Positions 3,272 to 20,792 are shown, numbered from the stretch's first letter. The stretch is 64,000 nucleotides of DNA from a virus (IMGVR_UViG_3300020047_005985:32001-96000), one strand, 5' to 3'. A program made the numbers and translations. The notes: generated by a model not told the origin, from the letters alone.

Positions 3272-3511
3272 TTACGCATGGATTTTAATTTTTTGATGAA
3301 AATATATCATACTCGTAATAGGAGTACTTGTTAAATAACAAAAACAAGGCATTTTATTTAATGCTGCAAACTCTAAAATATCCGCAGATGTTCTACCAGC
3401 TACCCAAAATAAATCATTAAAAGAAGAAGTTATATTCGAATCTTTAAACTTTAATTTAGGTTTATACTTTTTCTTCGACATATGTAGGTATAAATCCAAA
3501 AATAACAGCAT
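3272..3511 (-). CDS. hypothetical protein (likely later start MSKKK)
   Basis: ORF in the dense minus-strand run. Confidence 0.5.
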   Translation of the reverse strand: MLLFLDLYLHMSKKKYKPKLKFKDSNITSSFNDLFWVAGRTSADILEFAALNKMPCFCYLTSTPITSMIYFHQKIKIHA

Positions 3512-3716
3512 TATTTTCAGGTGTATCTAATACAATGGGCTTGCTGTCTAAATCTTGTTCAAATCTTATATCTGTAGATTGTAAATCTCTTAAATATAAT
3601 TGAACAGATCTATCACTAACTATTCCATATTCAGATATCAGCACTGGTGTATCTCCTTTTGCTTCTAAACTGTCTTCTAAAACTTGAAGATTAGTTATCA
3701 ATTCTCTTAAATTCAT
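3462..3716 (-). CDS. hypothetical protein
   Basis: 84-aa ORF overlapping neighbours. Confidence 0.7.
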   Translation of the reverse strand: MNLRELITNLQVLEDSLEAKGDTPVLISEYGIVSDRSVQLYLRDLQSTDIRFEQDLDSKPIVLDTPENNAVIFGFIPTYVEEKV

Positions 3717-7070: not shown

Positions 7071-7144
7071 TGGAAGAAGTTAGATTCGAACTAACAACCA
7101 CAGAATGATGGAATCTGCTGCTCTACCAATTGGCATACACTCCC
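7071..7144 (-). pseudogene. tRNA-like element with 9-nt anticodon loop (Trp-like)
   Basis: Stem GCAGA/TCTGT around TTCCATCAT; intact T arm; weak acceptor stem. Confidence 0.7.
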
Positions 7145-7202
7145 AGTAGTTTCCTGCTACATATACCCTAGTAAACAGGAAACTTTTGTAATTACTCGCA
7201 TT

Positions 7203-7317
7203 CATCTGTTTTTATACTTAAATTCAATGCTCTACCACTGAGCTATACGTCCGTAGTTAAATAAGTAATAGAGGACGTAAGAAGAATTGAACTTCTGACC
7301 TTGAGTTAGAACAGATG
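7203..7317 (-). ncRNA. circularly permuted tRNA-like RNA (YrlA/Y-RNA-like topology)
   Basis: tRNA 3' half (7305-7273) precedes 5' half (7252-7223); 7-bp acceptor closed by a 20-nt loop; ends paired by CATCTGTT/AACAGATG. Confidence 0.85.
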
Positions 7318-7329
7318 GCTTTCAAAGAT

Positions 7330-7407
7330 GACTAAAACTAAAGCTTGACTCACAAAACTATCTACTAAAAGTAAATACCATCATTTTGTAAGACTAATGC
7401 TAAAGTT
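7330..7407 (-). repeat. UAG-rich repeats CTTTAGnnTTAGTC
   Basis: Two near-identical copies (7330-7346, 7392-7407) and a degenerate middle copy; 7 UAG triplets in about 70 nt. Confidence 0.6.
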
Positions 7408-7424
7408 ATAAAGAGTCAATATTC

Positions 7425-8180
7425 TTAAAATAGAAATTCAAGTACCTTGTTTCCAAGATCAGATTCTTGACTTTCTATTGTATTTGCATTTTCTAAAGCT
7501 GCAATAACAGCTTTATATAAATTATCATATTTGGCTAAAATAATAGCTCGTTGACGAGTTGTGTACTCCCCTGAGTATTCTTGAGCTGTATAGGAACCAA
7601 TATTTACTTGCGTAGATTTTTCACCTACAATTGGCTGACGACTTTTATCTGGATGCGGATCAACTAAAATATAACTTTCCTTAATTGTGGTTTTTGAAAA
7701 ACCTTCATCAATTGGACTTTCATAAATCTCACGTCCCTCATGTTCTCCATTTGTTGATTCTTTCCAGATTACAGATTCTTTTCTGATTGGAAGTTCATGA
7801 ATCAAACTTTTAATTTTACCGTCCAAAATAGACTTGAGTCTTAAAAGTTCCAGGGTAGTGTAAGTTCCCCAATTTTTTCCATCTACAACTAAATCAGAAG
7901 TTACTCCTGTTGCATTTGTTTTTTCAATACTGAATACAATATTGAAATAATCTTGAACATGAGTTTTAAACCAACTTAATTGTTCTCCAACAGTTGAAGC
8001 AACTGCTTCATATCCACGCTTACTAGGTTCATCTGCATACCCATCAATAGGAGTATATGTTTTTTGATAACCTTTAAATAATCCTTGTTTGTTTTTGAAT
8101 TTACTGAACATATCATCCAGCATTAAACTAAATCCTTTTTCCACCTTATCTCTAAGGCCAAGTTGTACGGCTAATTTCAT
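7425..8180 (-). CDS. conserved hypothetical protein upstream of permuted tRNA-like RNA
   Basis: 251-aa ORF with LF.G..KTY.P and A.E.AN motifs, helical N- and C-termini. Confidence 0.85.
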   Translation of the reverse strand: MKLAVQLGLRDKVEKGFSLMLDDMFSKFKNKQGLFKGYQKTYTPIDGYADEPSKRGYEAVASTVGEQLSWFKTHVQDYFNIVFSIEKTNATGVTSDLVVDGKNWGTYTTLELLRLKSILDGKIKSLIHELPIRKESVIWKESTNGEHEGREIYESPIDEGFSKTTIKESYILVDPHPDKSRQPIVGEKSTQVNIGSYTAQEYSGEYTTRQRAIILAKYDNLYKAVIAALENANTIESQESDLGNKVLEFLF

Positions 8181-8205
8181 TACTAAAGTTTAAATATTAT
8201 TGTAG

Positions 8206-15056: not shown

Positions 15057-15207
15057 TAAGGGCAACTGGACTTGAACCAATAACCTCTGTCTAGTTCGGC
15101 AACTCCGGCAGGACTCTAACCTGCAACCTTCAGACCTGAGCCTGACGCTCTAACAATTGAGCTACGGAGTCAATGACAGCGCTCTATCCAAATTGAGCTA
15201 TACCCTT
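15057..15207 (-). ncRNA. outer tRNA whose anticodon loop contains a second tRNA
   Basis: Acceptor AAGGGTA/TGCCCTT, D stem GCTC/GAGC, anticodon stem CTGTC/GACAG, T arm ATTGG TTCAAGT CCAGT. Confidence 0.85.
15100..15171 (-). ncRNA. inner nested tRNA-like element with 6-nt anticodon loop
   Basis: GACTCCG/CGGAGTT, GCTC/GAGC, TCAGG CTCAGG TCTGA, GCAGG TTAGAGT CCTGC. Confidence 0.85.
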
Positions 15208-20484: not shown

Positions 20485-20792
20485 AATACTTTTTATTTTT
20501 TGAATAATTGCCTACTCTTTTGAAGGATTTTTGGCATACTCCTTATAAACCCTCTGCACTCTGTTATAATCATCAATGATTTCATTCCTATCAATTAAGA
20601 TGGTGTATTAATTTCAACTATAGATTATAACAGCTTACCAGGGACTAGTGGGAATTAGAGTTAATAGGCAAAACACCCAATAAGAGTGACAAATCCTATT
20701 TACCTGCACTTCCGCAAGTGGAGATATTTGTTGCGGTATTTTTAAACATCAGATCAACGAGTATTATTGTCTCTATTGATCTTAAACTGGTG

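What the first reader, a model, noticed from the sequence alone, without database searches (positions are those of the whole stretch)
7203..8191. Circularly permuted tRNA-like RNA coupled to a 251-aa protein gene: candidate RNP system
Seen: on the minus strand the tRNA 3' half (CTCAA GGTC AGAAG TTCAATT CTTCT TACGTCC) comes BEFORE the 5' half (GGACGTA TA GCTC AGTGGTA GAGC A TTGAA). The perfect 7-bp acceptor stem is closed by a 20-nt loop. The anticodon loop is open and continues into an 8-bp closing helix (CATCTGTT/AACAGATG). The RNA lies about 110 nt after the stop of the 251-aa gene. Known: this topology matches bacterial YrlA Y RNAs, which partner Ro60/TROVE proteins. No TROVE gene is visible in this window and I see no clear Ro-binding motif. 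Inference: the 251-aa protein is the partner of a Ro-independent tRNA-mimic ribonucleoprotein.
Basis: partly seen in the sequence, partly recalled or inferred. Interest (0 to 1): 0.9.

Follow-up and report, generated by a model that had tools for sequence, protein, structure and literature searches.

The report
Phage tRNA-mimic RNA beside DUF7873
The flagged stretch is a real, conserved RNA shaped like a transfer RNA turned inside out with no anticodon loop; it forms the core of a larger folded RNA that follows a protein gene of unknown function (DUF7873) in many phages, mostly without Ro60, the only known partner of such RNAs, so it probably marks an undescribed RNA-protein system.

Summary
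Observation confirmed. On the minus strand at 7203-7317 lies a permuted tRNA-like fold. Its order is T arm, 7-bp acceptor stem closed by a 20-nt loop, D arm, short anticodon-type stem, then an 8-bp closing helix. It starts 107 nt after the stop of a 251-aa gene.

The gene is Pfam DUF7873. A model of the RNA hits the same place after the gene in 46 of 55 related loci. Of the nine without a hit, six lack enough downstream sequence, two carry large inserts and one is a true miss. The stems show abundant compensatory changes.

The element is the middle domain of an RNA of about 270 nt. A 5' domain carries NAG triplets every 6 nt, and a 3' hairpin has a conserved loop.

It resembles YrlA Y RNAs (33.7 bits, gathering score 69) but fails their defining tests. 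This complete phage has no Ro60, and its RNA lacks the 5' Ro motif. Ten of 13 complete phages with the cassette lack Ro60.

The nucleotides after the acceptor stem match those after the ordinary tRNA genes nearby. This suggests cleavage into a two-piece tRNA mimic with a CCA tail.

Binding to DUF7873 is inferred from linkage only. The protein is mildly acidic and matches no known fold.

This scan has already found the same pair on other DNA, with notes in at least 122 genomes. I found no paper describing it.

The parts
7425..8180 (-). 251-aa gene, member of Pfam DUF7873 (PF25283)
   Evidence: ORF. Pfam gives 116.5 bits against a cut-off of 27. 210 homologues; 1834 cluster representatives at E<=0.001. 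AF2 model pLDDT 88.8, with no convincing fold match.
7318..7419 (-). 5' domain of the RNA. Helix TTGACTC (7413-7419) with GAGTCAA (7345-7351) encloses a run of UAR triplets at 6-nt spacing and an internal hairpin. A second run follows (AAG, UAG, UAG), then GAAAGCC.
   Evidence: By my reading of the sequences, the enclosing helix is present with changed sequence in all 47 loci (GACTC/GAGTC, CCAAC/GTTGG, TGCTC/GAGCA, ATCACT/AGTGAT, CAGAC/GTCTG and others). AG recurs at lag 6 in 30% of cases against 5.8% in shuffles (z 18), and at lag 12 with z 9.4. No Rfam family matches it.
7203..7317 (-). Permuted tRNA-like domain: closing helix, anticodon-type stem, variable loop, T arm, acceptor 3' strand, U73-C74, 20-nt loop, acceptor 5' strand, D arm
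   Evidence: Model R1 scores 125.9 bits here and is the only strong hit in the phage.
7253..7272 (-). Loop closing the acceptor stem. It begins with the invariant U73-C74 and is probably a trailer plus leader that is cut away.
   Evidence: TC follows the acceptor 3' strand in 44 of 44 modules. Loop length runs from 17 to 85 nt, and to 203 and 222 nt in L017 and L036. Ordinary tRNA genes in the same loci carry the same C74-A/T75-A76 trailer.
7148..7184 (-). 3' hairpin (AGTTTCCTG/CAGGAAACT) with loop containing AGGGTATATG, the local form of the family's GAAGGATATTGA loop
   Evidence: Fold. The same hairpin with an AGGA(T/A)AT loop follows the tRNA-like domain in nearly all relatives, often with a U run after it.
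7071..7144 (-). Odd tRNA with a 9-nt anticodon loop, directly after the hairpin; possibly a further member of the cassette
   Evidence: Rfam tRNA 34.7 bits with a 2-nt longer anticodon loop; not called by ARAGORN. Relatives have an aberrant tRNA at the same place, given as tRNA-???, Pyl(cta), a 73-75-nt Ser(cga), or carrying long inserts.

Best explanation
The flagged element is the tRNA-mimic domain of a stand-alone non-coding RNA of about 270 nt (window 7148-7419, minus strand). It is encoded directly after a DUF7873 gene inside the phage's tRNA cluster. It belongs to a large family of DUF7873-linked RNAs in phages and bacteria. These share the YrlA architecture but, in most genomes, have no Ro60 to bind.

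Shown:
- The fold is real, conserved and covarying.
- It keeps every tRNA element except the anticodon loop, so it cannot decode.
- It almost always follows the gene.
- Gene and RNA stay together in a genome even when they are unlinked.

Inferred, step 1: the host's tRNA end-maturation enzymes treat the closing loop as trailer plus leader. RNase P would cut before G+1. 3' trimming and the CCA-adding enzyme would finish the invariant U73-C74. The product would be a two-piece, CCA-tailed tRNA mimic held together by the acceptor stem and the closing helix, as reported for Mycobacterium smegmatis YrlA.

Inferred, step 2: DUF7873 binds or acts on this RNA. The 6-nt NAG track of the 5' domain is the likeliest platform. 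The pair would work in trans during infection in a tRNA-centred process, for example as a decoy or scaffold for enzymes that recognise the tRNA elbow and acceptor end.
For: RNA and linkage: model R1 hits 46 of 55 DUF7873 loci, and the window, on the gene's strand at 46-136 bits. Of the nine loci without a hit, six lack enough downstream sequence and two carry 203- and 222-nt loop inserts. Only L041 truly lacks the RNA.

Distant members also carry it. Five of five sampled proteins at 100-150 bits to the profile have it. So do Klebsiella phage vB_KpM_FBKp24 and Vibrio phage D505, at 27-30% protein identity.

Structure.

Processing: the closing loop varies from 17 to 222 nt, and U73-C74 is present in 44 of 44 modules. 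The trailer signature C74-W75-A76 matches that of 94 ordinary tRNA genes in the same loci. The proteobacterial phage versions encode NCCA. RNase P cleavage and CA addition are documented for the 7-bp-acceptor YrlA of M. smegmatis (PMC4201824).

Ro independence: no TROVE in this complete phage, and 9 of 12 complete relatives lack it. Three of 5 host genomes lack it. The Ro motif is absent from this RNA. One relative's Ro60 gene has its own adjacent permuted tRNA-like RNA besides the DUF7873-linked one.

Trans action: in Lak-A1 the gene and the only strong RNA hit lie 180 kb apart. In the genome holding L041 they sit on different contigs.
Against: There is no transcript, processing or binding datum. 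DUF7873 proteins are mildly acidic (median pI 5.75) and have seven conserved acidic residues. That looks more like an enzyme than an RNA-coating protein. The fold matches nothing informative: Foldseek E>=0.006 with TM about 0.1, and VIA Z<=6.1. Four or five of 27 relatives do encode Ro60. In G001 and G025 the DUF7873-linked RNA is the only YrlA-like RNA found, so Ro60 may use it there. The strict Ro motif occurs in 10 of 47 relatives. My sample is biased toward Bacteroidota phages retrieved by peptide patterns. An earlier check within this scan priced the Ro-independent particle reading at only 22 in 100.
Confidence: 0.5

Rival explanations
1. It is an ordinary YrlA-type Y RNA that works with Ro60, supplied by the host or in some phages by the phage. 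DUF7873 would be an accessory factor or merely a conserved neighbour.
For: Full-length Rfam YrlA alignment at 33.7 bits, E 9e-6 in the local search. GNCGAAN0-1G sits at the right place in 10 of 47 relatives against about 1 expected. True Ro60 genes (TROVE plus vWA_Ro60) occur in 4-5 of 27 related phages. Two of 5 host genomes have TROVE. In G001 and G025 no other YrlA-like RNA was found.
Against: The score is far below the gathering score of 69. This complete phage and 9 of 12 complete relatives have no Ro60. The window RNA and 37 of 47 relatives lack the Ro motif. Where Ro60 is present it lies 5-30 kb away and not beside the RNA, unlike the definition used by Chen et al. (within 4 kb, same strand). 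G009's Ro60 has its own adjacent RNA. Three of 5 host genomes have no TROVE.
Confidence: 0.17
2. It is a cis-acting processing and stability element. The tRNA-like fold would recruit RNase P and 3' processing enzymes to cut the DUF7873 message out of the long tRNA-cluster transcript, with no role of its own.
For: It lies in the 3' untranslated region inside a tRNA cluster, all on one strand. It has the same trailer signature as real tRNA genes.
Against: RNase P needs only the acceptor and T arms, yet the D arm, variable loop, closing helix, 5' domain with the NAG track and 3' hairpin loop are all conserved. The RNA survives 180 kb from the gene in Lak-A1 and on a separate contig in the genome holding L041. 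An ordinary tRNA would serve this purpose equally well.
Confidence: 0.12
3. It is a permuted gene for a working adaptor: a real tRNA after rearrangement, or a two-piece tmRNA.
For: The permuted gene order is that of two-piece tmRNA. Weak partial hits to the beta-proteobacterial tmRNA model occur in the Klebsiella and Vibrio phage versions.
Against: There is no anticodon loop: the anticodon-type stem runs into a helix with open ends. After the D arm there are only about 20 nt, leaving no room for a tag reading frame. ARAGORN finds no tmRNA. The third acceptor pair is A-U and not the G-U needed for alanine charging. The D arm is full-sized, unlike that of tmRNA.
Confidence: 0.03
4. The two halves are remnants of two tandem ordinary tRNA genes, or a chance match.
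For: The element lies in a tRNA cluster. The R1 model gives weak hits (32-39 bits) where two ordinary tRNAs abut.
Against: The same permuted arrangement occurs in about 50 divergent loci. The two acceptor strands covary across the loop, with 99.4% of cells paired and all 7 pairs showing changes on both sides. No locus shows intact flanking halves.
Confidence: 0.01

Closest known systems
YrlA (Y RNA-like A, Rfam RF02553), the Ro60/Rsr-bound Y RNA of bacteria and mycobacteriophages (Chen et al. 2014, PMC4201824)
   Same: Same permuted tRNA mimic: T arm, acceptor stem closed by a loop, D arm, and an anticodon side that runs into a stem formed by the RNA's distal parts. As in the M. smegmatis member, the acceptor stem is 7 bp and is followed by an encoded C, the features tied there to RNase P cleavage and CA addition. 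Some relatives carry the GNCGAAN0-1G motif.
   Different: It scores half the gathering score. No Ro60 gene is adjacent or anywhere in this phage, and this RNA has no Ro motif. It is flanked by a 5' domain with a 6-nt NAG track and a 3' hairpin with a conserved loop, neither of which YrlA has. The linked gene is DUF7873, not Ro60.
Two-piece (circularly permuted) tmRNA with SmpB
   Same: Permuted order in which the T arm and acceptor 3' end precede an intervening segment that is removed, followed by the acceptor 5' strand. It is a tRNA-like domain without an anticodon that works with a dedicated small protein.
   Different: No tag reading frame, no pseudoknots, no G3-U70, and a full D arm. DUF7873 is unrelated to SmpB by sequence and fold searches.
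DUF7873-linked tRNA-mimic RNA noted earlier by this scan on other genomes (e1-2703945, e1-5345299, e1-5633710 and others)
   Same: Same gene family, same position of the RNA directly after the gene, same 6-nt repeat track, same YrlA-like module, frequent location in phage tRNA clusters, usual absence of Ro60.
   Different: Many of those RNAs carry two tandem permuted modules, as I also saw in Klebsiella phage FBKp24. This Bacteroidota-phage lineage has one permuted module, a 3' hairpin with an AGGAUAU loop and then an aberrant tRNA. It encodes UC(W)A and not NCCA after the acceptor stem.

Membership tests
YrlA (Rfam RF02553) | Score at or above the curated gathering score (69 bits) | tested here: not met
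   33.7 bits over model positions 1-114. The best relative, G001, reaches 42.3 bits.
YrlA (Rfam RF02553) | Permuted tRNA-like module: T arm, loop-closed acceptor stem, D arm | tested here: met
YrlA (Rfam RF02553) | GNCGAAN0-1G motif near the 5' end (presumed Ro60 contact; PMC4201824) | tested here: not met
   The window has CUUUGAAAGCC, which matches neither the strict nor the relaxed pattern. The strict motif occurs in 10 of 47 relatives.
YrlA (Rfam RF02553) | Encoded within about 4 kb of a Ro60 (TROVE) gene on the same strand | tested here: not met
   No TROVE match and no homologue of a relative's Ro60 in the complete phage. Where relatives have Ro60 it lies 5-30 kb away.
YrlA (Rfam RF02553) | Bound by Ro60/Rsr in cells | not testable with these tools
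   Needs immunoprecipitation.
Pfam DUF7873 (PF25283) | Whole-protein score above the curated cut-off (27 bits) | tested here: met
   116.5 bits, profile positions 4-242 of 244.
tRNA (Rfam RF00005) | Cloverleaf in normal order with an anticodon loop, at or above 29 bits | tested here: not met
   Only half-matches of 14.7 and 13.1 bits. ARAGORN makes no call.
Two-piece tmRNA | Tag reading frame with resume codon, G3-U70 pair, reduced D loop | tested here: not met
   ARAGORN finds no tmRNA. The third acceptor pair is A-U, the D arm is full-sized, and there is no room for a frame.
DUF7873-linked tRNA-mimic RNA (this scan's working family, not published) | Structured RNA with a permuted tRNA-like module and a 6-nt repeat track directly 3' of a DUF7873 gene on the same strand | tested here: met
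   The window RNA starts about 6 nt after the stop codon.

The most novel reading that the evidence does not exclude
After RNase P cutting and CCA completion, the RNA becomes a two-piece tRNA mimic with a free, chargeable acceptor end and no anticodon. DUF7873 would be a new kind of enzyme or oligomeric reader that docks on the 6-nt NAG track. It would use the mimic either to trap host defence enzymes that attack tRNA or as a translation-independent carrier. That would make it a Ro60-free particle widespread in phages across several phyla.
Probability: 0.12. Interest if true: 0.9.

Novelty: new variant of a known kind. Interest (0 to 1): 0.7.

Why it matters
Permuted tRNA mimics of this shape are known only as Y RNAs that serve Ro60. 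Here the same design is joined to two extra conserved RNA domains. It travels with a different, uncharacterised protein family (1834 cluster representatives) in phages of Bacteroidota, Klebsiella and Vibrio and in Lak megaphages, usually without any Ro60.

If the pair is a working particle, it is a widespread and unstudied player in the contest over tRNA between phages and hosts. It would also be a second, independent use of tRNA mimicry by a small RNA.

It has a practical consequence as well. These modules can be mis-annotated: in Klebsiella phage FBKp24 a 'tRNA-Sup-TTA' is annotated across one of them.

Cultured phages carry the cassette, so the question can be tested directly.

Tried and rejected
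- Single-sequence folding is not significant (z -1.0), so I relied on comparative analysis.
- A DNA similarity search of the region against cultured phages gave nothing.
- PHROGs, NCBIfam and PADLOC have no family for the protein.
- A profile search of PDB sequences gave only noise.
- Fold searches gave nothing usable. Foldseek against PDB returned weak rows (beta-lactamases, Cascade backbone subunits) with TM about 0.1. VIA-align gave at best Z 6.1, on helical bundles. BFVD and the ESM Atlas returned only DUF7873 itself. The recurring Cascade rows are tempting because of the 6-nt repeat, but they are too weak to use.
- Three scripted attempts to score the 5' enclosing helix automatically failed, because my sequence anchors landed in the coding region. 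The helix is therefore documented by direct reading.
- I looked by eye for pairing between the 3' hairpin loop and other loops and found none convincing.
- The phage encodes no CCA-adding enzyme and no RtcB.
- Burroughs and Aravind 2016 and Sim et al. 2020 are not held in the library.
- Full-text searches for DUF7873 and PF25283 returned no paper.

Full report
**What is there.** The window is part of a complete 108,241-bp phage genome with terminal repeats. The minus strand between 6998 and 15681 holds a cluster of tRNA genes. Inside it lies a 251-aa ORF (7425-8180). The flagged element starts 107 nt after its stop.
- closing helix 7310-7317 with 7203-7210
- a 4-bp anticodon-type stem with one mismatch
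- variable loop GGTC
- T arm 7280-7296
- a perfect 7-bp acceptor stem (7273-7279 with 7246-7252) closed by 20 nt
- D arm 7229-7243

The bases that build the tRNA elbow and core are all in place (U8, A14, G15-C48, G18, G19, G53-C61, T54-A58). The RNA therefore mimics a whole tRNA except the anticodon loop.

**Is it more than chance?** Alone, the fold is not better than shuffles (z -1.0). The comparative evidence settles the question.

The ORF is a member of Pfam DUF7873 (116.5 bits). I fetched 55 loci encoding homologues at 34-58% identity from viral contigs and from one-per-species genomes. Most are Bacteroidota phages or phage-like contigs in Cytophagales, Bacteroidales and Saprospiraceae bins.

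A structural script found the same permuted arrangement 130-200 nt after the gene in 45 loci. I built covariance model R1 from 28 of them. It hits the window at 125.9 bits and 46 of the 55 loci on the gene's strand at 46-136 bits.

The nine loci without a hit break down as follows. Six lack enough downstream sequence. Two have 203- and 222-nt inserts in the closing loop, where the script still finds both halves. One (L041) truly lacks the RNA.

RNAalifold on a plain MAFFT alignment, given no structure, returned exactly the T arm, acceptor stem and D arm. Fifteen of 16 pairs were kept through changes on both sides. On the model alignment, 86.8% of cells pair against 37-46% for slid partners. 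The acceptor stem pairs in 99.4% of cells, and all seven pairs vary on both sides. Seed loci were selected for paired T and acceptor stems, so those percentages are partly built in. The closing helix (74%) and the D arm (94%) were not selected for.

**Reach of the linkage.** A profile search of 1.84 billion representatives finds 1834 DUF7873 clusters. Five sampled distant members (100-150 bits) all have an R1 hit 55-215 nt after the gene.

Cultured phages carry the gene too:
- Klebsiella jumbo phage vB_KpM_FBKp24 has two tandem modules after the gene.
- Vibrio phage D505 has one.
- In both, NCCA is encoded after the acceptor stem.
- Prevotella megaphage Lak-A1 is an exception. Nothing follows the gene, and the genome's single strong R1 hit (80.7 bits) lies 180 kb away with no DUF7873 ORF beside it.

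The genome that holds L041 likewise has the RNA on other contigs. Gene and RNA therefore co-occur even when unlinked. This argues that the RNA is a gene in its own right and acts in trans.

**The RNA is larger than flagged.** About 6 nt after the stop codon, a helix (7413-7419 with 7345-7351) opens a 5' domain. By direct reading, the helix is present in all 47 loci with at least a dozen different sequences. Inside and after it run NAG triplets, mostly UAG, spaced every 6 nt. AG recurs at lag 6 in 30% of cases against 5.8% in shuffles (z 18), at lag 12 with z 9.4, and not at all in the coding sequence upstream.

After the tRNA-like domain comes a hairpin (7148-7184). Its loop, GAAGGAUAUUGA in most relatives and AGGGUAUAUG here, is conserved and is often followed by a U run. 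Directly after that comes an aberrant tRNA, here with a 9-nt anticodon loop (7071-7144). In relatives this tRNA has other odd anticodon arms. Rfam has no family for any of these parts.

**Relation to YrlA and Ro60.** The only Rfam match is YrlA at 33.7 bits against a gathering score of 69, aligned end to end.

Chen et al. (PMC4201824) define YrlA RNAs by three things: the tRNA-like module, a 5' GNCGAAN0-1G motif thought to contact Ro60, and a location within 4 kb of a Ro60 gene on the same strand. Here the first is met and the other two are not.

The complete phage has no TROVE match and no homologue of a relative's Ro60. The motif is absent from this RNA. It occurs at the right place in 10 of 47 relatives against about one expected, which points to common descent with YrlA.

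Of 27 related phage records, four or five encode a true Ro60 (TROVE plus vWA_Ro60), always 5-30 kb from the cassette. Among records at least 90% complete, 9 of 12 have none. With this phage included, that makes 10 of 13. Three of five host-type genomes carrying the cassette have no TROVE.

In one phage (G009) the Ro60 gene is followed by its own, separate permuted tRNA-like RNA. In G001 and G025 the DUF7873-linked RNA is the only YrlA-like RNA found, so a role with Ro60 in those phages is not excluded.

**How it probably works.** The closing loop of the acceptor stem is unconserved and ranges from 17 to 222 nt. In two loci it has accumulated tandem repeats. The two bases after the acceptor 3' strand are TC in 44 of 44 modules.

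I compared this with 94 ordinary tRNA genes in the same loci. These carry N73, C74 (86 of 94), A or T at 75 (86 of 94) and A76 (76 of 94). The modules carry U73, C74, then mostly A or T, then A (36 of 44).

The module thus bears the same 3' trailer signature as real tRNA genes nearby. The simplest reading is that the same enzymes give it free ends. That is what Chen et al. found for the M. smegmatis YrlA, the one studied member with a 7-bp acceptor stem. RNase P cuts it, and CA is added to an encoded C.

The product here would be two RNA pieces held by the acceptor stem and the closing helix, with a CCA tail and no anticodon. U73 is invariant in the modules but rare in the ordinary tRNAs (9 of 94). 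This suggests that a specific reader recognises it.

**The protein.** The AF2 model is confident (pLDDT 88.8). It shows long helices packed on a sheet with one long hairpin. No search gave an informative fold or family.

The family is mildly acidic (median pI 5.75). It has seven invariant or nearly invariant acidic residues as well as conserved R55, R114, K116, R133 and R211. That profile suits an enzyme or an adaptor better than a protein that simply coats RNA.

Physical binding to the RNA is therefore an inference. It rests on linkage and on analogy with other tightly linked protein and RNA gene pairs (my own knowledge). I put the reading 'DUF7873 and this RNA work together without Ro60' at about 0.5. 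I rate a specific role, such as a decoy for tRNA-targeting defences, much lower.

**Novelty.** Full-text searches for DUF7873, PF25283 and combinations of Y RNA, tRNA-like and phage found no description. A jumbo-phage survey mentions only Ro60 with a tRNA-like partner (PMC7824862). Two possibly relevant papers are not held.

This scan has met the same pair many times on other DNA, so for the scan it is a repeat. That call's word search listed 196 findings in at least 122 genomes. A later check there kept the observation but priced the bold reading at 22 in 100.

New in this report:
- the shared trailer signature with real tRNA genes
- the unlinked gene and RNA in Lak-A1 and in the genome holding L041
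- the Ro60-adjacent second RNA in G009
- the count of the Ro motif
- the acidic character of the protein

Noticed in passing
window 7071-7144 (-): tRNA-like gene with a 9-nt anticodon loop (UUCCAUCAU) directly after the cassette. ARAGORN does not call it; Rfam tRNA gives 34.7 bits. Relatives have an aberrant tRNA at the same place with other odd or greatly enlarged anticodon arms, so it may belong to the cassette.
   Followed up: partly
related loci L007-L060 (94 tRNA genes): Ordinary tRNA genes of these Bacteroidota phages encode C74, then A or T at 75, then A76 (CWA, not CCA) after the discriminator. This is a consistent trailer signature that I have not seen described.
   Followed up: partly
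L062 719-886 (-), phage record G009: A Ro60 gene (TROVE, 467 aa) is followed at once by a second, shorter permuted tRNA-like RNA (acceptor stem closed by 11 nt). This phage also has the DUF7873-linked RNA elsewhere.
   Followed up: partly
L035 and L036, closing loop of the acceptor stem: The loop has been invaded by tandem repeats, (GGAATTAG)n in L036 and a GATGGTTGATAGTT-type array in L035, without disturbing the flanking stems.
   Followed up: no
L073 3473-3552 (Klebsiella phage vB_KpM_FBKp24, NC_061421.1): The record annotates a 'tRNA-OTHER / tRNA-Sup-TTA' that overlaps the 5' part of the second permuted module (R1 hit 3484-3642). This is probably a mis-call of the module's T arm and CCA end.
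   Followed up: partly
L085 (Lak-A1, MK250016.1 215,950-216,134): The megaphage keeps the tRNA-mimic RNA 180 kb from its DUF7873 gene. With TAG read as Gln, a 405-aa ORF appears on the opposite strand next to it.
   Followed up: partly
window 15098-15171 (-): ARAGORN calls a tRNA with an undetermined anticodon ('ca'). Another note of this scan describes a tRNA nested in the anticodon loop of another tRNA at this place.
   Followed up: no
window 20509-20544 (-): Match to the Rfam DUF805b RNA motif above its gathering score (42.4 bits against 35.6).
   Followed up: no
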